Assembly (NCBI GenBank): GCA_947176205.1
Contig: CAMWPX010000001.1
Span: 1-55,078 of the forward strand
Direction of reading: 5' to 3'
Source of the DNA: an uncultured Porphyromonadaceae bacterium
GTDB lineage: Bacteria > Bacteroidota > Bacteroidia > Bacteroidales > Muribaculaceae
DNA length: 55,078 bases
Shown here one piece after another: positions 1 to 55,078 of the stretch. The position numbers and the translations under genes are program-made. The notes beneath the pieces were generated by a model. It worked only from the letters and a program-made list of their open reading frames with translations, ran no database searches and was not told the DNA's origin. Position 1 is the first letter of the stretch; each line of letters starts with the position of its first letter.

Positions 1-86
1 GTCATGGTTAATTGTTAAAGAGAAAATTCAGTTGACAAATTTTCCTCAGATAATTTCAAAAGATAAGTTACGCCTCAGAGCATTAA

Positions 87-1037
87 TTATTTCGGTTTAA
101 TTATTTTAATAGGGAATTTATATACCTGCATCTGCGAATCCTTTTTTCTCACCTTTCCCATCCATTCATTGAATTTTTTAAAATCTGTTTCACGTGGCAT
201 AAGATTTACATTTTGACCTTCAATCCGAATATTTTTCTCGGATGTTTTATTCTCCTTAGTATTCGCTTTAGAGAATTCATTTGGAGAAAACACAATATAT
301 ACTACATTTAAGTCCAATTTTTTACGTGCATACATCTTTAATCCACCCGCTATATCCACATATTGCGGTTCAGCATGCTGTCGTGAAAAAAACACATATT
401 CTTTATCAGCTTCTATACGATAAGCTCCCTCTTGCTGCCCTTCATATGGCAATATGGCTTGCATTGTATTTTTTGAATCATCATCTTGCAGATAAATAGT
501 CAGCCATCCACTGACGGGAGAATTAAAATACACGTAAAAATTATCTCCATCATAATACTCAAAACCTCTCAGCAAATTTCTGTCCCTATCACAACCGTTA
601 CATAACAATCGTACATCCAAGTCTATTTTCTGATGTTCAATACGTCGGGCTTCTCCTTTTACCTTCACACTATATAACATGCCATACTTCGTAGACTTTT
701 CAGAAACGATTTCAGGCTCCTTAAGGTCCCGAATCCATTCGCCATTGGTATCTGTCTGCGAAACCGTCAGAATAGATGTCTCTGTATGCCCTCCTTCTTG
801 TCGGTCAACCATTATGTTACTTGAGCCATGTTGCACTCCGAAAGCATCTTTCAATAGCTTTATTCTGGCATACTCAATAGCTTTTAGTTTTGCCTCTGCC
901 GGTGTTAAATAATCTGATACAGTACACTCTATCTCGCCTTTTAAAGTAATTATGTCATCATTCCCAGCTAAAACCGGGAATGATGACATAATTAATAGGA
1001 GTACCCAATTACAGCGTTGTATTATATGTCGTATCAT
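87..1037 (-). CDS. Secreted DUF4384-like protein with N-terminal LPP20/FlgT-N-like segment
   Basis: Signal peptide (..SFPVLA-G). N-terminal TPAEAKLKAIEYARIKLLKDAFG helix motif. C-terminal YDGDNFYVYFNSPVSGWLTIYL..ILPY..IEADKEYVFF pattern typical of DUF4384. Confidence 0.6.
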   Translation of the reverse strand: MIRHIIQRCNWVLLLIMSSFPVLAGNDDIITLKGEIECTVSDYLTPAEAKLKAIEYARIKLLKDAFGVQHGSSNIMVDRQEGGHTETSILTVSQTDTNGEWIRDLKEPEIVSEKSTKYGMLYSVKVKGEARRIEHQKIDLDVRLLCNGCDRDRNLLRGFEYYDGDNFYVYFNSPVSGWLTIYLQDDDSKNTMQAILPYEGQQEGAYRIEADKEYVFFSRQHAEPQYVDIAGGLKMYARKKLDLNVVYIVFSPNEFSKANTKENKTSEKNIRIEGQNVNLMPRETDFKKFNEWMGKVRKKDSQMQVYKFPIKIIKPK

Positions 1038-1714
1038 TCAGCTGTTGAGGTCTCTCCCTCTGTATTAAGCCTATCCATGGCATCCATCAAAACTTTCTGT
1101 AATGCCGGATCTTCTGTTTCTGTACTATTGAGCAATGCTTTTGCTGTTTCTTCTTCTGCCAACTTGCGGTCATATGCCAAAACCACAGTAGCTTCATAAA
1201 AACCGGGCTTATTCTTAGCCTCACGTATCATATTCACCACTGGTTCTGTACCGCTTAGCTTTTTTTCTATTACTGACATGGCATTACTTTTTGCATCATT
1301 CAAAGTTTTTGATGATGTTTTCTCAACCACTGTATTCAGTTTAATCGCTGCAGCCACTTTCTGCTCAAGGGAGCCGGCAATATTTTTGATTGAGCGTTCA
1401 CGAGCAAATTCTATGGCAGCTCCGGGATCATCGGTTACAAATGTACCATAACCCATAAGATAAATACGGCGCCCTTTATCATCTCTCATAAATTCCAGTA
1501 CCGTGCGCTCAAATATCTGATCCTCTATCATGGCACTCCCGCCATACGATTCCCATCCTTGTTTCTTTTTTTCTTTAGCTTCTTTTTTAGCTCGCTTCTC
1601 AATTTTATTTTCTTTGATTACACGTGTTCGCATATTTGACATGTCCTGTGCTAAAACGGACATAGTGGGAATACACAAAATTGCAACAACTATAGATACT
1701 ATTATTTTTTTCAT
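1034..1714 (-). CDS. Secreted LPP20-like hypothetical protein
   Basis: Signal peptide (..SVLA-Q). KRAKKEAKEKKKQGW and AAIEFARERSIKNIAGSLEQKV motifs resemble Bacteroidales LPP20-like proteins. 4-bp overlap with the downstream gene. Confidence 0.5.
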   Translation of the reverse strand: MKKIIVSIVVAILCIPTMSVLAQDMSNMRTRVIKENKIEKRAKKEAKEKKKQGWESYGGSAMIEDQIFERTVLEFMRDDKGRRIYLMGYGTFVTDDPGAAIEFARERSIKNIAGSLEQKVAAAIKLNTVVEKTSSKTLNDAKSNAMSVIEKKLSGTEPVVNMIREAKNKPGFYEATVVLAYDRKLAEEETAKALLNSTETEDPALQKVLMDAMDRLNTEGETSTAE

Positions 1715-1744
1715 ATACGTATATATTAATATTTGCTGTTTTTA

Positions 1745-2491
1745 TTAAAATACATAACCTGCACCAACCTGAATAATATGATTGGAATCTGTAAAATCAG
1801 TAGTTAATGTATATCCAAAGGATAAATTAAAGTGTTCTGATGGACGTAGAATGTATCCCAAATCCACTGCCATACCTGATTTTGTCTCTAAATGAGAATA
1901 TTCATAATATTCCTCCCTATCATAATATTCATTATAATAATAACCGCTATACTTCTCCATACCGTGAATATTACCATAACCGATACCTAAAAATAAGAAT
2001 GATGACAGTTTATGAATACTTTTAATAACTCCGACTGTACCTATCATAGGAGTACTTGCGTAACCTACTTCAAAACCCCATTTTGCATAATATCCCCATT
2101 TACCTAACTGACCACCCATAAACCCGACAAACGGGCCATTATCAACAAACCCCCAAAAGCCTATATTTACATTGATGAAGAAGGGATGCTGATTCTGTGG
2201 ATTGAGGGTAAAAATCATATCAGAATTAAAATCAGGCTTAAGTGTTTTACTTTTTAGTCCGGAATATGATGCTGTCAACTTTTTCAATAGTGGATGCACA
2301 TTCATGTTGAATGAACCATCAGCATCAGTAATCACAGATTCTCCCCCGCCAGCTGCATTTACCTCTGCTCCGGGGAGTGGGCTACCGTTCTTATCTACCA
2401 CATAACCTTTCACGTTACGATATACACTCTGTGCCTCAACACTACCTACTGCTATAATAGCAAATAGGACAAAATAAATAATTCGTTTCAT
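1745..2491 (-). CDS. CarboxypepD_reg-like domain plus small outer-membrane beta-barrel
   Basis: Signal peptide. VKGYVVDKNGSPLPGAEV..TDADGSF motif. Amphipathic beta strands ending in the beta-signal GAGYVF. ATG at 2491 preferred over TTG at 2497. Confidence 0.7.
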   Translation of the reverse strand: MKRIIYFVLFAIIAVGSVEAQSVYRNVKGYVVDKNGSPLPGAEVNAAGGGESVITDADGSFNMNVHPLLKKLTASYSGLKSKTLKPDFNSDMIFTLNPQNQHPFFINVNIGFWGFVDNGPFVGFMGGQLGKWGYYAKWGFEVGYASTPMIGTVGVIKSIHKLSSFLFLGIGYGNIHGMEKYSGYYYNEYYDREEYYEYSHLETKSGMAVDLGYILRPSEHFNLSFGYTLTTDFTDSNHIIQVGAGYVF

Positions 2492-2525
2492 TGTCAAATT
2501 TTAACTTAATTATATTAGTAAATTA

Positions 2526-4499
2526 TCAATCAAAAAGGTTGCGCGATTTCCATGTTGACCCAAGAGCCTCAGAGGCTTTGACTGTAGGAGTCTGAGTTGC
2601 CCCAAGTTTATTTTGTACTTCAAAAGCTACATTTTCCGACAACTTTTGGGAAAGTGTCTCCAGTGTAATTTTTCCTCTGCTTTCTTGCAATGCTTTCAGA
2701 AGAAAATATGTAAAAAATCCATGACCTTTTTCTTTGTATGGATTTGCCAGTTGTGAGCCCGTTCCAGCACTGAATACAACCGTATGACCTTTAGCTGCTA
2801 CATCTGCCGCATCCCGAGCAACATAACGAGCTGAATAAATAGACCTTCCGTCACGACCTTGACCTGAAAAACAAGCATCGAGAAAAACTGTTATATTCTT
2901 CGTTTTCATCTTATCAAAATCAGCATACAATTTATCCAGAGCGAACATCGATTCCGGATTTCTTCCATCTGAATCAATGGGAACTAAGTAACTATTTTCT
3001 CCAATTTGGTCGGGCATTCCATGTCCTGCATAAAAAAATATTACATTAAACATACCCGGTTTAATATCGGTCAAATCTTTTATATTGCTAAATGCCTGTT
3101 TCATATTCAAGTATGTAGCATCCGGATAATATTTCACACGGTCTTCCGGAATTCCAAGTACTTTTTTACAATATTCAACCATCATCTCCCCATCACGCAG
3201 TGCAAAATCCACTTTGGATGTTACTTTATTGGCATAATTCTCATTTGATATAATAAGAGCTAAAGTATTTTCATTAAGCAATCCTACAGTTGGAATATTT
3301 ATATCAACATCTGATATTATTTTTTCTTCAACTCCGTTAGCAATATCTACCGTTGTAGATTGGGCTGCTGTAGCATAGTTTAACGAAGGGGTATAACTTT
3401 GTACCAAAGTGGGTAAAGCGCTGTAATCCACTTTAGGTACATTAAGATTATTGAGGACTCGGTTAGTTTCTTCCAAACGCACAGCTTCATTATTCACACT
3501 ATAACAGAACGCTAAGGCTCGTGCGACATTAGCCGCATAGGGCGTGTTATTTAGCACTGTTTGCAATTGGGCTGCCGATTTTTTATACAACATCTTTGCC
3601 TCATTCATTGCTCTTTCATCCCCATTCTTTTTAGCACGTACATATATTAATGTAGCCGCGTTATAACAATCGAATCCAAGATGTGTAATATGGTCAAGAG
3701 TGGCTCCCGGTAAAGCACATAAGCGAGCAAAGCTATGAGTCGCTTTGTCATATTTTCGCTGGCGTTCATATAGCTTTCCCTGATATTCGAGTAATCCTAT
3801 ATGCTCGGGTTGCAATCGCAATGCCTTTTCAAGTAACTCTCCCATTTCAAGGTCATTACCATTATATCCGGCTGCTTCAATTCCTATTACAAGAATATTC
3901 CAGTTATTCGGATATTCTATTGCCCCTTGATAGGCAATATTTGCAGCGGCGCCATAAGCTTTTTGTTCAAAATGACACCGGGATAAACCTTCAAAAGCAA
4001 TCTCTCTGGAAGCAGGGTCTTTACTTTCTAGATAGGCTTCAAAATATCTTATTGAGCTATCATATTGCCGACGATTAAACATATTAGTAGCAGCTAAATT
4101 TGCCAATGTGCCAAATCGAGGTGACAACATCAATGAATCTTTACTTAGACACGGTTGAATAGCTACGTCCACATACATACAGGCATATTTCAACACCTCT
4201 TCCTGATTACCTTTAGAGGCATAATAGTATGCCGCATCAGCAAGACGTGGATATATTTCTTTTAATGCTATTTTACATTTAGTATATATTTCAGAATCAG
4301 ACCGTTCCCCAGCTACAGCTGAAGTAAAACCCTGTGCAGCCGCATAGAGTGATTGATATGCCTTATCATCGGGATTTCTACTCGAAACAATATTACGAAA
4401 ATTCATCAAATTTGTCTGCGAAGCGGATAAATCTATAGCCCCCCAAGCCTTAAATGTGGTGAAAAATAGAATCAATGATATTAATATTTTGTATTGCAT
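2526..4499 (-). CDS. Secreted TPR-repeat caspase-family (peptidase C14) protein
   Basis: Signal peptide (..KAWGA). Helical TPR-like repeats. C-terminal ALIISNENY, FFYAGHG (His), FLDACFSG (Cys), HGFFTYFLLKAL and QTP motifs. Confidence 0.9.
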   Translation of the reverse strand: MQYKILISLILFFTTFKAWGAIDLSASQTNLMNFRNIVSSRNPDDKAYQSLYAAAQGFTSAVAGERSDSEIYTKCKIALKEIYPRLADAAYYYASKGNQEEVLKYACMYVDVAIQPCLSKDSLMLSPRFGTLANLAATNMFNRRQYDSSIRYFEAYLESKDPASREIAFEGLSRCHFEQKAYGAAANIAYQGAIEYPNNWNILVIGIEAAGYNGNDLEMGELLEKALRLQPEHIGLLEYQGKLYERQRKYDKATHSFARLCALPGATLDHITHLGFDCYNAATLIYVRAKKNGDERAMNEAKMLYKKSAAQLQTVLNNTPYAANVARALAFCYSVNNEAVRLEETNRVLNNLNVPKVDYSALPTLVQSYTPSLNYATAAQSTTVDIANGVEEKIISDVDINIPTVGLLNENTLALIISNENYANKVTSKVDFALRDGEMMVEYCKKVLGIPEDRVKYYPDATYLNMKQAFSNIKDLTDIKPGMFNVIFFYAGHGMPDQIGENSYLVPIDSDGRNPESMFALDKLYADFDKMKTKNITVFLDACFSGQGRDGRSIYSARYVARDAADVAAKGHTVVFSAGTGSQLANPYKEKGHGFFTYFLLKALQESRGKITLETLSQKLSENVAFEVQNKLGATQTPTVKASEALGSTWKSRNLFD

Positions 4500-4511
4500 A
4501 GCAGTCCCTTA

Positions 4512-6578
4512 TTAAAATGCATCTATAAACTCAAGCGATACACTGATTTTTCTGAATTGAGCACCCTTTTCTTTCGCCACCTCTATATTGTGACGATAAC
4601 CTACATTCATTGTTGCAAGTTCGGGTAGAAGTTCAGACATTTTTTTCTGCACTGCCTGTGCCCGCATAAATCCAAGTTCCTCATTAGATTGTATCCCGCT
4701 ATTATGATTTACCGAAATTGTTGTCAATGCACCATTTACTTTACACGGTTCCTCGTCAAATTCTCCAAGAAAACCATCATAGGATATCGCTCTGTTTACA
4801 GGCATAGCATCGGCACTACCGGTAATATGAATTATAAGTTCTTTTCCGGGCACAATATAATTGGCAAATTCGGAAATAAACGCCTGACGAATAATCTGTA
4901 ACATAGACTCGGCGGCATGAGAATCCTCGACCCGATATTTCCCAGGCGGAAAATCTTCCGTTGCTGACCCTTCTGCATCAACTTCATAAGCAAAGTCAAC
5001 TACATAATTACGTATGCGGCGACCGGTAGCATCAACACCAACCTCAATACGTGTATCTACGTTAAGCTTTGTATGGTCAGAAATACGATTTGCTGCACGT
5101 GCTTCTTCCATTATTCTATCTTTTATATCCTGCAGAATAACATCCTGACGTGAGGATTGGAGTATGAGGTCAAGTGAAACAAACCCGTCATCTGTATTTA
5201 GAAAATCAAGATTTTGCCCGTCGAGATTATCAAATATGTACGTTTTACCATTAGTGGGGTTGAATACTTCAACATATATGAGCTTGAAGGTATTTTCTTG
5301 AGTTACCATATAGACCTGATTGCTGAATTGTAAATTATTACCATCTCCAAATCCAGGCATATCTTCTACTGGAACTTTCAAATATATATCCGGTAAATTA
5401 TTTCCCAATGATATTATAAGCGTACCGTCCGATGGATTATAACGACCCAGCGTAACCATCCCGAAGTTTCCTAAACCCGCTGTAAGTGCAAGTTTACTAG
5501 ATTCTTGTCGGACGAATAATTCTCGTTGCCTGCTTATACTCTCTTCGTTGACACGCTGTCTGTATTCAACTTCTGTTTCACCAGGACGCATTTTAATCCA
5601 TTCAGACATCAATGCTTCTACTTTCTTATTAATTAATAATATATAGTTTTGTGAAAAACCTGTAAGTTCGCGATAACGGATATTTGTATCCGTAACACTC
5701 GCTAAATACATATTATTATGATTATCAAACACAAATCGAGCATCACTTACCCCCGTTTCATACACTGAAGGTTGGTCAGACAAATCATGGAGGTTAATAA
5801 ATTGCACACGATTACCATCAGCAACAAAACCGGCATAGTTTTCCTCCGGGTGAAAAAACAAATGCGATGTTGTTGATGCAATATCCTCACATTTCTTTAT
5901 AGGTTTAAAATCAGCCGTGGAATATATTTCGAGTTTCCCATTAACACCCAGTAATCCAATACATTCGGATGATGCAGTGAAAGCTACGGATGTAGGGACT
6001 GAAACGGGAAATGATTGACGGAGAGTACCTGCATTAAGATTATACACATCCACTCTATTTTCATATACTACAGCAATATAGTAACCATTGTCACTAACAA
6101 CCAATTCACTTGGCATATCATCTCCAATTGCAAAATTTCTATGAAGTACAAGTGTTTTAGAATCAATCAACTTAATATTTCCTTTATCAGCAACTATCAA
6201 ATGACGACTATCAGGTGAATAACATATTGCTGACGGTGAAACCAATCCTTTAATTTCTCTTCCCGATATATTTGAATTAAGTGCATTAATAGTCACTTTT
6301 GTCTTGTTTTTTTTACCCCAAAGCATTGCATAGGAATAGCCAGCAGGATTAACTTTTATTGCCTGAATTTTATTGCCTAATGAAGCTATTTCATAACCTT
6401 TGAGATTATACGCTTTTTTATTGTTAGTAAAATATATTGAATACCGATAATTATCTATAAGTTCCGGCTTAATATTCTGACCATATTTCATCATTTTATC
6501 TACCATTATTTGCCCTGTGACAGATGGACTTGCCAAAATAATAGACATAGTAAGAAGGAAATATTTGTACCTACGCAT
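4512..6578 (-). CDS. Secreted WD40 beta-propeller protein with C-terminal OmpA-like domain
   Basis: Probable ATG at 6578 (MRRYKYFLL..) with signal peptide. Propeller blades (AICYSPDSRHLIV, LVVSDNGYYIAV, VAFTASSECIG). C-terminal ITGSADAMP..NEELGFMRAQAV..FRKISV resembles the OmpA_C fold. Confidence 0.65.
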   Translation of the reverse strand: MRRYKYFLLTMSIILASPSVTGQIMVDKMMKYGQNIKPELIDNYRYSIYFTNNKKAYNLKGYEIASLGNKIQAIKVNPAGYSYAMLWGKKNKTKVTINALNSNISGREIKGLVSPSAICYSPDSRHLIVADKGNIKLIDSKTLVLHRNFAIGDDMPSELVVSDNGYYIAVVYENRVDVYNLNAGTLRQSFPVSVPTSVAFTASSECIGLLGVNGKLEIYSTADFKPIKKCEDIASTTSHLFFHPEENYAGFVADGNRVQFINLHDLSDQPSVYETGVSDARFVFDNHNNMYLASVTDTNIRYRELTGFSQNYILLINKKVEALMSEWIKMRPGETEVEYRQRVNEESISRQRELFVRQESSKLALTAGLGNFGMVTLGRYNPSDGTLIISLGNNLPDIYLKVPVEDMPGFGDGNNLQFSNQVYMVTQENTFKLIYVEVFNPTNGKTYIFDNLDGQNLDFLNTDDGFVSLDLILQSSRQDVILQDIKDRIMEEARAANRISDHTKLNVDTRIEVGVDATGRRIRNYVVDFAYEVDAEGSATEDFPPGKYRVEDSHAAESMLQIIRQAFISEFANYIVPGKELIIHITGSADAMPVNRAISYDGFLGEFDEEPCKVNGALTTISVNHNSGIQSNEELGFMRAQAVQKKMSELLPELATMNVGYRHNIEVAKEKGAQFRKISVSLEFIDAF

Positions 6579-6601
6579 AGCTGAGTGATTATGATTCGGA
6601 G

Positions 6602-6635
6602 CAAAATTACACAAAAGTTAACAATTACCCCCCCC
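6602..6635 (-). promoter_or_regulatory. Putative island promoter: -7 box TAATTTTG with a G8 tract near the -33 position
   Basis: CAAAATTA at 6602-6609 reads TAATTTTG on the minus strand. C8 run at 6628-6635 lies 18 nt upstream. Confidence 0.45.
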
Positions 6636-6736
6636 ATTAGTTAAATATAATTAAAACAATCAATCGTAAATAATTTTACAGCCGAAGTCAATACTGATGA
6701 CACTGCTGTACTAAGCAAGAAATTTTTCCAAAAAAA

Positions 6737-6791: not shown

Positions 6792-7172
6792 ATGATGAAT
6801 CAGAAAAAGAAACTTACTGAAAAGGAGTCGGCTATCATGAAGCTGCTCTGGGAGCATGGAGCGATGTTTGTTCGCGAGATGCTCACTTACTATGATGAGC
6901 CGCGTCCGCACTTCAACACCGTAAGCACTACGGTGCGTATTCTTGAGGATAAAGGATTCGTGACTCACGAGGCTGTAGGCTCTTCATACCGCTATAAAGC
7001 CACAGTGTCGCCCGAATATTTCCGCTCACGTACTCTCAGTCAGGTGGTACGTGATTACTTCAGCAATAGTTACACTCAGGCGGTGTCGTCACTCGTGGAG
7101 GAAGAGAAGGTGTCGGTGGACGAACTGCGTGAAATTATCGCCATAATCGAACGTCGCAAAAATCAATCATGA
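6792..7172 (+). CDS. BlaI/MecI/CopY family transcriptional repressor
   Basis: LTEKESAIMKLLW..HFNTVSTTVRILEDKGFV..YFSNSY winged-helix signature. Confidence 0.93.
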   Translation: MMNQKKKLTEKESAIMKLLWEHGAMFVREMLTYYDEPRPHFNTVSTTVRILEDKGFVTHEAVGSSYRYKATVSPEYFRSRTLSQVVRDYFSNSYTQAVSSLVEEEKVSVDELREIIAIIERRKNQS

Positions 7173-8458
7173 CCATGGGACTTCTGCTTGCTTACTCCAT
7201 ATATGGCGGGGTGTTTCTCGCTTTCGGCTACACGGCTTACCGATGGCTGCTGGCCCGACATAAATACGGTATCATCAACCGCCGGTGTCTGCTCGGCATC
7301 TACATGACTGCCCTGCTCGCCATGCCGCTTATCATGTCAGCCTCTCACCTGCTGACGGCTACAGACAGCGTCCAAGGAGCAATAATCGCTGACACTCCCG
7401 CTCTTCAGGGAGTCGTCACCCAACCTGCAGGCGAACTGCGGATTATGTCGTGGCTTATTTGGATATATGCTGCGGGATGCTCGGCTGTAGTGCTGCACTT
7501 CATATACGGACTGGTGCGTCTGCATCTTATCATAGCTTCAGGTGCAAAGGAGAAGTATGGCGACTGTACATTAGTGCGTATAGCCGGGTGCCGTACGCCA
7601 TTCAGCTACGGACGCTATATAGTAATCGGCACACATGAGCATGCACAGACTATGATTATAGCGCATGAGATGGCTCACATCACCCAACAGCACCGGATTG
7701 ACCTGTGGATTGCCCAGGCTGTGTGCACTCTGATGTGGTACAACCCCACGGCATGGCTCATGCGTAACCAGCTGCGGGATGTACATGAATATCTTGCCGA
7801 CGAAGAAGTAATCCGCCAAGGACATGACGTAATCAAATATCAGGAACTATTAATAGAAAAGGCTATCGGTACGAGGTTGCAGCCGTTGACCAATAGCCTG
7901 AATCAAAGTAACATTTATAAACGTATCACTATGATGTACAAAAAGACTCCTTCAGGCGCTACGCGCCTGCGTGTGCTGGGTCTGATGCCCGCACTGATTA
8001 TGGCGGCAACCGTATGTGTTGCATCGCCCGTAGCTTCCACTGTCAACCTTGCTGCCGCCACTTCTATGGCAGAAGCATCGCTGAACTCAAGCAAAGTTAC
8101 ACAAATTTCCGAATCCGCCCAACCCGGCGCTGATTCGGATGTGGAAAAAGCCCCTTACAAACTTGCTTCGTTCAATGGCGGAGAATCCGAACTCATCAAC
8201 TTCCTGATTGAAAACATTCATTATCCCGAGGAGGCACTCAAGGCCGGCGAAGAGGGTAAGGTAATAGTCAAATTCGTGGTGGAAACCGACGGCTCGATTT
8301 CCAATGTGGAAATTACGAAGAGCGTGACCCCTGCTCTTGACAAAGAAGCCATACGTGTGGTTAACTCGATGCCACGGTGGACTCCGGCTTTCAATAAGGA
8401 GGGACAACCCGTACGCTGCTTCTATATCCTTCCGGTATCATTCAAAGCCAAACGTTGA
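7169..8458 (+). CDS. M56 (BlaR1-like) metallopeptidase fused to TonB C-terminal domain
   Basis: TM helices. AHEMAHI (HExxH), WYNP, HEYLAD, KRITMM. C-terminal YPEEALKAGEEGKVIVKFVVETDGSI..LDKEAIRVV..WTPA. Confidence 0.9.
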   Translation: MTMGLLLAYSIYGGVFLAFGYTAYRWLLARHKYGIINRRCLLGIYMTALLAMPLIMSASHLLTATDSVQGAIIADTPALQGVVTQPAGELRIMSWLIWIYAAGCSAVVLHFIYGLVRLHLIIASGAKEKYGDCTLVRIAGCRTPFSYGRYIVIGTHEHAQTMIIAHEMAHITQQHRIDLWIAQAVCTLMWYNPTAWLMRNQLRDVHEYLADEEVIRQGHDVIKYQELLIEKAIGTRLQPLTNSLNQSNIYKRITMMYKKTPSGATRLRVLGLMPALIMAATVCVASPVASTVNLAAATSMAEASLNSSKVTQISESAQPGADSDVEKAPYKLASFNGGESELINFLIENIHYPEEALKAGEEGKVIVKFVVETDGSISNVEITKSVTPALDKEAIRVVNSMPRWTPAFNKEGQPVRCFYILPVSFKAKR

Positions 8459-53057: not shown

Positions 53058-53291
53058 ATGAAAGATATTGACCAATCCATAGCTAAAATGTTGCGGGAAA
53101 TAAGAGAATCTCGCAAAATATCTCAAGAGACCCTATCGTTTGATTCTAATCTTCATAGAACCTATATAAGTCAATTAGAGCGAGGATTAAAATCCGTCAC
53201 CGTTAAAACCCTTTTGAAGATTACCACTGCTTTAGACATTGAAATTGATGATTTTATTAAATTAGTTAATGATGACCGTAAAACACTATAA
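53058..53291 (+). CDS. XRE-family HTH controller (C) protein
   Basis: LREIRESRKISQETLS..LHRTYISQLERG. Lies directly upstream of the putative REase. Confidence 0.85.
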   Translation: MKDIDQSIAKMLREIRESRKISQETLSFDSNLHRTYISQLERGLKSVTVKTLLKITTALDIEIDDFIKLVNDDRKTL

Positions 53292-54012
53292 TCTTACCGA
53301 AGAAAACGAGAATCGCCTATTGACTGGACTGAAAGCTGCTGTGTCCATTCCGATTATTGACAGTATAGAAGACTTTATTTGGGAAAGTATATTCTGTTAT
53401 ATGAAGCAAATACCATATATTGACCCATTCAAAAATACAAGAAGTAAAAAATTATATGACATTACTGATTCTGAAAATAACATCGGATGGTCTGCAAAGG
53501 CTTTACAATGGTCATTGACTCCTGGAAGTGAATTTGAAATAGTAATCCAAAGGGCAGATGTTTTCAAAAAAGCTGAAAGTTTAGGATTCAATAATCTGAA
53601 TATTGATTCAGACCCTAATATAATTGGAGCTGCGCTATTGAAACATTGGCACTTGAAAATTAATGAAGATGCCAAGAAACAGAATGTTAAGGATAAACGA
53701 ATATGTATTCTTCTAAAAAATAAAGCTTGTACGAAATTTGCTTACATAGAAGAAGACATAGCAATTTATGATACCGATGAACTAGAATGGATGTGGTCTG
53801 ATTCAGATAAGACCGGGCTTAAAGGAATTCGTAAAACCGATGGCTTTTGCGTATACAAGTGGTACCATAATCAAACACAATTCTTCGAGAGGTTCAAATT
53901 TGAACAATCATCTAAAATTTATAATATCGACTTGCACCGCTTGAGCTTAAATCATTTTATAGATTTGATACACAAAGAATTGAGTGAAGATGAAAATAAT
54001 TTATGCTGTTGA
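53269..54012 (+). CDS. Putative type II restriction endonuclease
   Basis: Sits between the C gene and a convergent 5mC MTase. E..(LY)D..GWSAK resembles a PD-(D/E)xK variant with SxK. Confidence 0.6.
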   Translation: MMTVKHYNLTEENENRLLTGLKAAVSIPIIDSIEDFIWESIFCYMKQIPYIDPFKNTRSKKLYDITDSENNIGWSAKALQWSLTPGSEFEIVIQRADVFKKAESLGFNNLNIDSDPNIIGAALLKHWHLKINEDAKKQNVKDKRICILLKNKACTKFAYIEEDIAIYDTDELEWMWSDSDKTGLKGIRKTDGFCVYKWYHNQTQFFERFKFEQSSKIYNIDLHRLSLNHFIDLIHKELSEDENNLCC

Positions 54013-55078
54013 AAAGACTTGTTATTTCCCAATAAGTCTTTTATAACATTAGCCATAGTGTACATAATTAACGACGGAACAGCATTACCGATTTGAGCTG
54101 CTTTCTCTATATAAGTCCCCGAAAAAACAAAATCATCTGTAAAACATTGCAATCTGGCAGCTTCCCTTATTGTTATCAAACGAGCATTCTTTGGATGACC
54201 ATATCTACCCGAACCAGGATGAAAACACCACCGAGTAATAGTCTGAGCCACATTATCAAAATCAAGGCGCCCATATGCTCCACTATATCCTCCTTTAGGT
54301 CTTATTTCCGGTGGAAGATCCTTGATTCCCTGTCCCGCAGAAAGAGAACGCATCCGCTCTAACTGAACACCTTTCAATTCTCGTGTTATATGGTCGTGCA
54401 ACAACCCGGAATCGCGCCTCATAAATCTCTGATAATCATTGACTGCCGGTTTATCATATTCCATAACCAAAGCTCCTTCCCCATTCTCTAATTCAGGCAA
54501 ATCACATATAGCATCCCAAGCTGAAACATAAGTCTTGTTTATACTAAATAGACTTTCGGCATTTGCTTTCTGATGTGTCGGTTCTGGGAAATAAGGTTTT
54601 TTACCATTTCGAGTTGCTAAGAAAAAACAACGGGAACGTCTTTGGGGAACTCCGTAATCTGGGGCAAATAAAACTTTTACTGCAACCATATACCCGAGTT
54701 CTTCCAAATGTAAAACAATTTGTCTTCTTATCTCTCCATTAAAAGCATTATAAATTTCTGCCACATTTTCAATAACAACAATCTTCGGCAGAAATTCATC
54801 GACAAAACGAATATAATCTTTGTATAACTGATTGCGGGAATCTTCAAGAAATCGATATACAGAAGGAACATTTTTAGAAAATCCCTGACAAGGTGGTCCG
54901 CCCACCATACAATCCAACTCCCCCTTATCCAATTTCAAATCTTTTCTGATATCCGCCGCATTGAAGTCTCTGATATCTCCTTTATATGTTTTTGCATCAG
55001 GGTGATTCAATTGAAAGGTTTTGATGGCAGGTTCCCAAATATCAAGACCACCTATTATATCAAAACCAGCCTTATACC
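53952..55078 (-). CDS. DNA (cytosine-5)-methyltransferase, 5' end outside window
   Basis: GGPPCQGFS, ENV, YGVPQRRSR, REAARLQ, QIGNAVP. The frame stays open upstream of 55010 (..KAGFDIIGGLDIW..) to the window edge. Confidence 0.95.
   Translation of the reverse strand, partial: YKAGFDIIGGLDIWEPAIKTFQLNHPDAKTYKGDIRDFNAADIRKDLKLDKGELDCMVGGPPCQGFSKNVPSVYRFLEDSRNQLYKDYIRFVDEFLPKIVVIENVAEIYNAFNGEIRRQIVLHLEELGYMVAVKVLFAPDYGVPQRRSRCFFLATRNGKKPYFPEPTHQKANAESLFSINKTYVSAWDAICDLPELENGEGALVMEYDKPAVNDYQRFMRRDSGLLHDHITRELKGVQLERMRSLSAGQGIKDLPPEIRPKGGYSGAYGRLDFDNVAQTITRWCFHPGSGRYGHPKNARLITIREAARLQCFTDDFVFSGTYIEKAAQIGNAVPSLIMYTMANVIKDLLGNNKSFQQHKLFSSSLNSLCIKSIK

What the first reader, a model, noticed from the sequence alone, without database searches (positions are those of the whole stretch)
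87..6578. Candidate extracytoplasmic caspase system: five-gene, all-exported operon on an AT-rich island
Seen: five tightly spaced co-oriented genes (gaps of at most 35 bp, one 4-bp overlap), each with an N-terminal signal peptide. They encode WD40+OmpA-like, TPR+caspase, CarboxypepD+beta-barrel, LPP20-like and DUF4384-like proteins, on DNA much more AT-rich than the core. Known: characterised bacterial caspase-family proteases (gasdermin-activating, CHAT/Craspase-type) act in the cytoplasm in defence, often with TPR/WD40 sensors. Inference: this is a periplasm/outer-membrane module in which a barrel and peptidoglycan-anchored scaffold gate a TPR-regulated protease, for envelope-level phage or competitor sensing, or for processing a surface structure. 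I know of no functional characterisation of this arrangement.
Basis: partly seen in the sequence, partly recalled or inferred. Interest (0 to 1): 0.82.

Follow-up and report, generated by a model that had tools for sequence, protein, structure and literature searches.

The report
Periplasmic caspase on ring-like scaffold
Five neighbouring genes of a gut Bacteroidales bacterium encode a caspase-type protease and four partner proteins, all predicted to be exported, and the same core recurs in many uncultured relatives; it likely forms an undescribed protease switch under the outer membrane, built on proteins resembling flagellar ring subunits in a genome where no flagellar L-ring gene was found.

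Summary
In detail: five co-oriented genes (gaps 12, 34, 30, -4 bp), 37% GC against 48% for the rest of the contig, each with a signal-peptide-like N-terminus, and an intact caspase His-Cys dyad. The unit is conserved: the same order occurs in 5 of 77 loci, and the caspase lies beside gene E in 70 of 77. In the genus, 12 of 36 other genomes carry both and 24 neither. The core is caspase + E (+ D). The WD40/OmpA protein, barrel and TPR are swappable parts, and AT-richness is not conserved. E's model has an N-domain with FlgP-like topology (ring-forming hairpin insert) and an Ig-like DUF4384 domain; D is LPP20-like. Best reading (0.4): a periplasmic scaffold clusters an Arg/Lys-type, MALT1-like protease whose variable repeat domain picks the trigger. 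Binding, rings and purpose are untested; no death effector or defence-island link was found. The operon probably continues into contig C8, a second LPP20/transglutaminase cassette behind an unlisted structured leader RNA. Ten literature searches found no description; this scan noted the family before on other DNA.

The parts
4512..6578 (-). Gene A, 688 aa: signal peptide, WD40-type propeller (~25-310), conserved middle domain (~311-463) also found in many of the caspases, C-terminal OmpA-like domain with a ~45-residue insert (G587-x-A-D590 ... N632 ... R639)
   Evidence: propeller; middle domain shared; OmpA weak in 7 of 28; hhalign 86%; D590, R639 in 28 of 28
2526..4499 (-). Gene B, 657 aa: signal peptide, TPR region, C14 caspase-like domain (392-657) with H493/C543 dyad and invariant D436, D541
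   Evidence: (nearest solved relative MALT1, E 4e-8)
1745..2491 (-). Gene C, 248 aa: signal peptide, CarboxypepD_reg-like domain, small outer-membrane beta-barrel ending in Y-V-F; barrel segment 29-42% identical among orthologues; up to four tandem copies
1034..1714 (-). Gene D, 226 aa: signal peptide, basic N-terminal extension, LPP20-like domain, C-terminal helix; family of 1473 clusters at 50% identity with no common Pfam family
   Evidence: hhalign 96% to an 8-row LPP20 set
87..1037 (-). Gene E, 316 aa: signal peptide, N-domain beta-alpha-(beta-hairpin)-beta-beta as in FlgP/FlgT-N, Ig-like DUF4384 domain
   Evidence: pLDDT 91.8; top Foldseek hit 9hmf_A, E 4.6e-3
6602..6656 (-). Conserved promoter-like element: TTAA(C) direct repeat, G8 run, TAATTTTG (fits the Bacteroidota -7 box TAnnTTTG, recalled); same element with G5-G8 before gene A in five other loci
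1..86 (-). Spacer after E up to the contig end; the last 9 nt equal the first 9 nt of contig C8, the probable continuation

Best explanation
The operon encodes a caspase-type protease with an intact catalytic dyad and four partners that are predicted to be exported and likely assemble into a protease switch in the periplasm, under the outer membrane. Shown: gene content, conservation, linkage of caspase and E, swapping of the caspase N-terminal repeat domain. Predicted: A, B, D and E are soluble periplasmic proteins (type I signal, no lipobox) and C is an outer-membrane barrel. Inferred: E (FlgP-like domain with a polar hairpin) and D (LPP20-like) oligomerise into a ring or lattice; A ties it to peptidoglycan through its OmpA-like domain and C to the outer membrane; the caspase domain docks on the DUF4384 domains of E. 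Inferred: when the variable repeat domain of B (TPR here) or the propeller of A binds its ligand, the clustered caspase domains dimerise as MALT1 does (recalled) and cut envelope proteins after Arg/Lys. The purpose is most likely a response to foreign or damaged material in the envelope; substrate and trigger are unknown.
For: Caspase beside E in 70 of 77 E-seeded loci, 43 of 45 with 5 kb on both sides, same strand in 68 of 70; E beside the caspase in 16 of 20 caspase-seeded loci. In the same 61 genomes, 19 have a caspase match at E<1e-30 and 18 of them have E; the 19th has E in its locus; 24 of 36 same-genus genomes have neither. Caspase and E trees agree in part (distance rank correlation 0.54, 0 of 500 permutations; 25 of 43 supported splits shared). 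DUF4384 is listed as an accessory domain of 23 cyanobacterial orthocaspases (PMC8283722 Table 1 passage). A's C-terminal part is fused to the caspase in L067 and A is followed by a caspase in 27 of 28 cases. E model and top Foldseek hit; ring formation goes with this insert in the FlgP family (PMC12222027 passages). Dyad in 78/79 and 79/79 rows, two invariant Asp aligned with MALT1 Asp positions. Repeat-domain swapping, five related clusters in this one genome, and a different cassette at the orthologous site of a close relative.
Against: The FlgP match is weak (E 4.6e-3, TM by target 0.37, rmsd 8.2) and did not appear among the top 50 rows of either VIA list, which the Ig domain filled. D against E's N-domain reaches only 43% in hhalign, and D's insert shows an i,i+4 hydrophobic pattern more like a helix than a ring-forming hairpin. 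D is missing from 25 of 77 loci and occurs in 6 genomes without a strong caspase match. No E-caspase fusion was found in one search for longer forms (weak). The E profile was built partly from caspase neighbours in those genomes, so the positives are partly circular; kin are not independent. No consistent substrate or effector gene is seen, and no inner-membrane output beyond an output-less CHASE2 protein in 5 of 77 loci. The window's caspase lacks the middle domain shared by A and other caspases.
Confidence: 0.4

Rival explanations
1. A maturation or release machine for a surface structure: the LPP20/FlgP-like proteins brace an outer-membrane assembly site and the caspase (with the LapG-like enzyme where present) trims adhesins or lipoproteins, as gingipains do for type V pili and LapG does for LapA (both recalled).
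For: A transglutaminase-like protein with a D-C-E-D motif is in 29 of 77 loci (DUF553 weak) and in the probable continuation C8. Large lipoproteins, PEGA, FGE-sulfatase and Fn3 proteins sit in some clusters. Caspase-less LPP20/transglutaminase clusters exist (C2, C8, L162, L163), so the scaffold can work without the caspase.
Against: No conserved cargo family recurs across the 77 loci; five loci with the exact five-gene order have unrelated neighbours on both sides. Fixed cargo would not obviously need six interchangeable repeat families on the protease.
Confidence: 0.27
2. A structural brace between outer membrane and peptidoglycan, with the caspase as a quality-control or disassembly protease for the scaffold itself (for example cutting the basic N-terminal extension of D).
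For: FlgP-family rings line the outer membrane, and a ring protein encoded next to flgP protects its barrier in H. pylori (PMC11756786 passages). A protease-derived protein (PflC) docks on FlgP rings (PMC12222027 passages). D has conserved Lys in its N-extension.
Against: Patchy presence (24 of 36 same-genus genomes lack it; 1 weak match in 120 near-complete phylum genomes), several paralogous clusters per genome and cassette exchange fit an accessory recognition function better than housekeeping.
Confidence: 0.15
3. A classical anti-phage abortive system in which the caspase activates a separate death effector, as gasdermin-associated proteases do.
For: PADLOC caspase model hit, E 2e-9; TPR/WD40/LRR sensors; patchy spread; low GC in this copy.
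Against: Signal-like N-termini on nearly all members. Of 95 flanking ORFs only four had PADLOC hits, all generic enzyme folds or another caspase. No gasdermin, NTPase or TIR family among 32 accessory proteins and 29 caspase N-termini scanned. Below the EACC1-type caspase cut-off (50 vs 140 bits).
Confidence: 0.1
4. A chance cluster of foreign genes.
For: Low GC in this copy.
Against: Same gene order in five other genomes, shared promoter element, linkage counts above.
Confidence: 0.01

Closest known systems
FlgP basal disk (Campylobacter), FlgT/FlgP H-ring (Vibrio) and H. pylori Lpp20: SHS2-like LPP20 family
   Same: E's N-domain has the beta-alpha-hairpin-beta-beta order described for FlgP, and its top Foldseek hit is a 106-residue chain of the C. 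jejuni scaffold (taken to be FlgP from its size; not confirmed). D matches LPP20-type proteins.
   Different: No FlgH found in this 92%-complete genome; D and E have no lipobox; E carries an Ig-like DUF4384 domain; partners are a caspase, a barrel and an OmpA-like protein.
MALT1 paracaspase / bacterial orthocaspases (Pfam Peptidase_C14)
   Same: Caspase fold by sequence, His-Cys dyad, acidic residues at the positions that favour basic P1.
   Different: Predicted exported, fused to swappable repeat domains, tied to LPP20/DUF4384 partners. Exported bacterial metacaspases were noted only as architectures (46 sequences with an N-terminal helix, PMC3501461 passages).
Gasdermin-associated caspases, EACC1/EACC2 and other caspase conflict systems
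   Same: Constant caspase with variable repeat sensors; a domain shared between two neighbouring genes, as with effector-associated domains.
   Different: Those act in the cytoplasm with NTPase, TIR or pore effectors (PMC8195603 and bioRxiv 2023.09.22.558884 passages; gasdermin part recalled); none was found here.
LapD-LapG-LapA adhesin release (recalled)
   Same: Related clusters hold a periplasmic transglutaminase-like Cys enzyme and sometimes a membrane sensor (CHASE2).
   Different: No such enzyme in the five genes; the CHASE2 protein has no cytoplasmic output domain in Pfam; no conserved giant adhesin.

Membership tests
Peptidase C14 (caspase-like) | Pfam PF00656 above cut-off | tested here: met
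   73.8 bits vs 21.4
Peptidase C14 (caspase-like) | His-Cys dyad | tested here: met
   H493, C543; 78/79 and 79/79
Peptidase C14 (caspase-like) | Proteolytic activity, basic P1 | not testable with these tools
   inferred from D436 and D541 aligned to MALT1
Gasdermin-associated / EACC1 caspase defence systems | Cytoplasmic protease without export signal | tested here: not met
   signal-like N-terminus in 87 of 92 by a crude rule, Gln rule 57 of 89
Gasdermin-associated / EACC1 caspase defence systems | Adjacent gasdermin, EACC1, STAND or TIR gene | tested here: not met
   none in the five genes, 95 flanking ORFs or the 61 accessory proteins and N-termini scanned; NF047832 50 vs 140 bits
LPP20 family (PF02169) | Pfam LPP20 above cut-off | tested here: not met
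   D: no hit; 1 of 141 relatives at E 0.002
LPP20 family (PF02169) | Remote homology to LPP20-type domains | tested here: met
   hhalign 96% to an 8-row set of which 3 rows pass Pfam's cut-off; Atlas lead 0.87, LPP20 in 24% of members
LPP20 family (PF02169) | Lipobox cysteine | tested here: not met
   none in D; 3 of 69 D relatives called lipoprotein
FlgP/FlgT-N ring formers | SHS2-like fold with beta-hairpin insert | tested here: inconclusive
   topology present in E model; Foldseek E 4.6e-3; not listed by VIA; no model of D
FlgP/FlgT-N ring formers | Ring oligomer | not tested
FlgP/FlgT-N ring formers | Part of a flagellar motor | tested here: not met
   FlgH not found in G000, controls rang in 3 of 14
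OmpA-like peptidoglycan-binding domain | Profile match and conserved G-x-x-D ... N ... R motif | tested here: met
   hhalign 86%, controls under 3%; D590, N632, R639 invariant; Pfam only weak, 7 of 28
OmpA-like peptidoglycan-binding domain | Binds peptidoglycan | not testable with these tools
   needs a binding assay
Lap adhesin-release system | LapG-like enzyme, LapD-like c-di-GMP receptor and LapA-like adhesin together | tested here: not met
   enzyme in 29 of 77 loci but not in the five genes; CHASE2 protein without GGDEF/EAL; no conserved adhesin

The most novel reading that the evidence does not exclude
A periplasmic inflammasome: FlgP-like rings, the same fold that braces flagellar motors, display DUF4384 domains that cluster and switch on a MALT1-like caspase when exchangeable LRR/TPR/WG/WD40 sensors or variable outer-membrane barrels detect an invader in the envelope; cassettes are swapped at fixed loci and some are controlled by an unlisted structured leader RNA.
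Probability: 0.2. Interest if true: 0.92.

Novelty: categorically new. Interest (0 to 1): 0.68.

Why it matters
Characterised bacterial caspase-like proteases work in the cytoplasm (recalled). A conserved exported caspase with a fixed scaffold partner and swappable repeat domains would give the first testable case of caspase signalling in the periplasm. It would also give the LPP20/FlgP fold a non-flagellar job, which bears on where flagellar disks came from. The system is frequent in uncultured gut Bacteroidales (12 of 36 same-genus genomes) but almost absent from a draw of 120 near-complete phylum genomes, which may be why it has not been studied. The five-gene form is small enough to express whole.

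Tried and rejected
Single-sequence structure of A failed (pLDDT 37) and was not used. Complex prediction of caspase with E was not available, so binding is untested. Metagenome scan with E peptides found no relative. No longer or fused E forms (weak evidence). No useful PDB sequence hits for D, E, A's C-terminal or middle domain (best was a 73-residue uncharacterised protein at E 0.023). VIA-align lists were filled by generic Ig-like matches (RbmA, alpha-2-macroglobulin, GbpA; Z about 8) and say nothing on E's N-domain. The hydrophobic-moment test failed its own helix control and is not relied on; the column means only show that E's hairpin is polar, against a membrane pore. No RNA holder listed; three DNA runs of one study cover the operon in short pieces and none bridges the contig end. 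Sigma-70 and terminator scans were at chance level. An ATG at the contig end looked like a sixth gene but the matching frame at the start of C8 closes after 12 codons. The divergent blaI/M56 pair is not a partner: 10 of 11 homologous sites inspected showed no cluster gene in the stretch held (1.5-kb flanks for all, longer stretches for five). My first ORF caller missed genes in high-GC loci; counts were redone on six frames, and some of the 95 flanking ORFs may be spurious. Literature searches listed no paper on this arrangement.
Full report
Setting. The window is the whole of contig C1 of a 1.93-Mb, 92%-complete assembly. Close homologues of E carry Muribaculaceae, Duncaniella and Bacteroides labels, and near-identical DNA is in gut metagenomes, so the host is a gut Bacteroidales bacterium.

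Observation. The five ORFs, spacing, low GC and signal-like N-termini are as described. None has a lipobox; C ends in Y-V-F, as do 11 of the 33 C-like proteins, with other x-x-F endings in several more. By established Bacteroidota sorting rules (recalled) A, B, D and E would be periplasmic and C an outer-membrane protein. I did not scan specifically for T9SS C-terminal domains, but Pfam and NCBIfam reported none on the five proteins.

The protease. B residues 392-657 are a C14 domain. In 79 aligned relatives H493 is kept in 78 and C543, D436 and D541 in all. The nearest solved relative by profile is the MALT1 paracaspase (E 4e-8), ahead of metacaspases, and the two Asp residues align with Asp in MALT1. 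Basic P1 preference and activation by dimerisation are inferred from MALT1 and orthocaspases (PMC8283722 passages; dimerisation recalled). The N-terminal part is exchangeable: TPR, BspA-LRR, WG repeats, Sel1, WD40, CARDB or unassigned (30 proteins; 29 of 69 N-termini scanned).

Conservation and core. A scan of GTDB genomes with an alignment of close E relatives gave 77 loci. On six frames a caspase is present in 70, D in 52, the transglutaminase-like gene in 29, A in 21 and CHASE2 in 5; five of the seven caspase-less loci have under 2.2 kb on one side of E, and two well-flanked loci (L054, L096) truly lack it. The exact order A-B-C-D-E is in L045, L046, L047, L049 and L050 with unrelated neighbours; A-B with C and E but no D is in L048, L051, L052 and L053. 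In one fixed draw of 61 genomes the caspase matched at E<1e-30 in 19, E in 18 (the 19th found) and D in 25. Within the genus the 12 of 36 genomes with the caspase are exactly the 12 with E. The positives are partly circular because the E profile included neighbours of those caspases; the 24 double negatives are not, though some genomes are incomplete. In 120 near-complete genomes drawn across the phylum E matched once, weakly. The core is therefore caspase + E, usually with D next to E (47 of 52).

The scaffold proteins. With 114 sequences E folds confidently (pLDDT 91.8): strand 5-16, helix 22-42, hairpin 44-73, strands 75-108, then a beta-sandwich (mature numbering). Foldseek's top hit is chain A (106 residues) of the C. 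jejuni flagellar periplasmic scaffold, E 4.6e-3, 24% identity over 104 columns; the paper gives FlgP as 11.5 kDa, describes the same SHS2-like fold with a ring-forming hairpin in FlgP, shares the fold with Lpp20 and FlgT, and links ring formation to that insert (PMC12222027 passages). The match is weak and the VIA lists did not test this domain. The DUF4384 part is an Ig-like sandwich with only generic matches (Z about 8). E's hairpin is polar on average, so a soluble ring is more likely than a membrane pore. D has no Pfam family but matches LPP20-type proteins by profile (96%); its insert looks more helical than hairpin-like, so D may resemble Lpp20 more than FlgP. A's C-terminus matches OmpA domains (86%) with the Asp and Arg of the peptidoglycan motif invariant (role of these residues recalled). 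A's middle domain recurs in many caspases, and L067 fuses A's C-terminal part to a caspase. FlgH was not found in the genome.

Genome context. The genome has four further related clusters: C84 and C48 with LRR-caspase, E and D (C48 also transglutaminase-like and CHASE2), and C2 and C8 without caspase but with LPP20, DUF6175 or PEGA, and transglutaminase-like genes. The minus strand of C1 ends in the 9 nt that begin C8; a second contig gives 8 nt, so the overlap alone is weak. Synteny supports it: in relative G031 the orthologous blaI-M56-carbonic anhydrase genes (64-96% identical) face a leader 84% identical to the start of C8, then a different caspase-less cassette, then a transglutaminase-like gene 89% identical to C8's. 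The C8 cassette is also AT-rich (0.38). So A-E is probably an insertion at a site where cassettes of this family are exchanged. No read bridges the join. No integrase or defence enrichment was seen.

Regulation. Upstream of A lies a TTAAC repeat, a G run and a TAnnTTTG box, kept in six loci with G5-G8; length variation between species suggests but does not show slipped-strand control. Many other clusters have a separate 300-nt leader (see Noticed in passing).

Mechanism and verdict. The best-supported reading is a periplasmic protease switch on an LPP20/FlgP-like scaffold (0.4); surface-structure maturation (0.27), structural brace (0.15) and classical abortive defence (0.1) remain. Linkage and domain swapping are shown; export is predicted; rings, binding, activation and purpose are inferred and untested.

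Literature. Ten searches (listings and abstract starts only) showed no description of this arrangement. I read passages, not whole texts, of PMC3501461, PMC12222027, PMC8195603, PMC11756786, bioRxiv 2023.09.22.558884 (112) and PMC8283722. I opened no supplements; gene-neighbourhood tables there could list this module, and subscription papers are not searched. Six earlier notes of this scan describe the same family on other genomes; they are unchecked AI notes and are not counted as support.

Noticed in passing
G000:C8:286-607 (L044:286-607), just beyond the probable join at window position 1: A ~300-nt leader with two conserved structured domains ending in a stem plus U run. 23 hits in 1.81 Mb of loci, 19 flagged within 2.5 kb upstream of a core gene and 3 more in front of cluster genes by eye (loci were chosen around the clusters). 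18 of 37 pairs show compensatory change, above 500 of 500 shuffles and all slid controls (structure derived from the same alignment). No Rfam match. Nine matches in G000, several before other exported-protein genes.
   Followed up: partly
G000:C2:7908-15871 (L043) and G000:C8:637-7685 (L044): Caspase-less clusters of the same broad family: DUF6175, LPP20 proteins, PEGA-barrel, transglutaminase-like, CHASE2 and partner.
   Followed up: partly
L163:5930-14376: Close relative carries a different AT-rich cassette (two lipoproteins, D-like, 299-aa protein) at the orthologous site next to blaI: cassette exchange.
   Followed up: partly
L051:6700-9899: Four tandem copies of the C-type barrel gene; N-domains 55-90% and barrels 48-62% identical to each other.
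   Followed up: partly
L073, L075, L081, L107 (e.g. L073:1642-2223): ECF-type sigma factor gene directly upstream of the cluster, in L075 followed by a C39-peptidase protein.
   Followed up: no
L072:8769-9125, L078, L089: LytTR-only gene directly before D.
   Followed up: no
window 6601-6635: One contig of run X1 matches only this 35-nt promoter/G-run stretch and runs on unlike the window on both sides, so the motif occurs elsewhere in that sample.
   Followed up: no
window 6792-8458 (+): BlaI/MecI-type repressor and M56 peptidase-TonB-C gene, divergent from the operon (labels from sequence, recalled); not linked to the cluster at most homologous sites.
   Followed up: partly
window 53269-55010: A second AT-rich patch at the other contig end: a 247-aa ORF and a cytosine methyltransferase-like ORF (GGPPCQGFS motif, recalled), probably a restriction-modification pair.
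   Followed up: no
L052:558-4899: Two vWA-like genes and a kinase-like gene (TerY-type triad, recalled) directly upstream of gene A.
   Followed up: no
L059:1599-2666, L113:3614-4453: A second, more divergent exported C14 protein inside the cluster.
   Followed up: no
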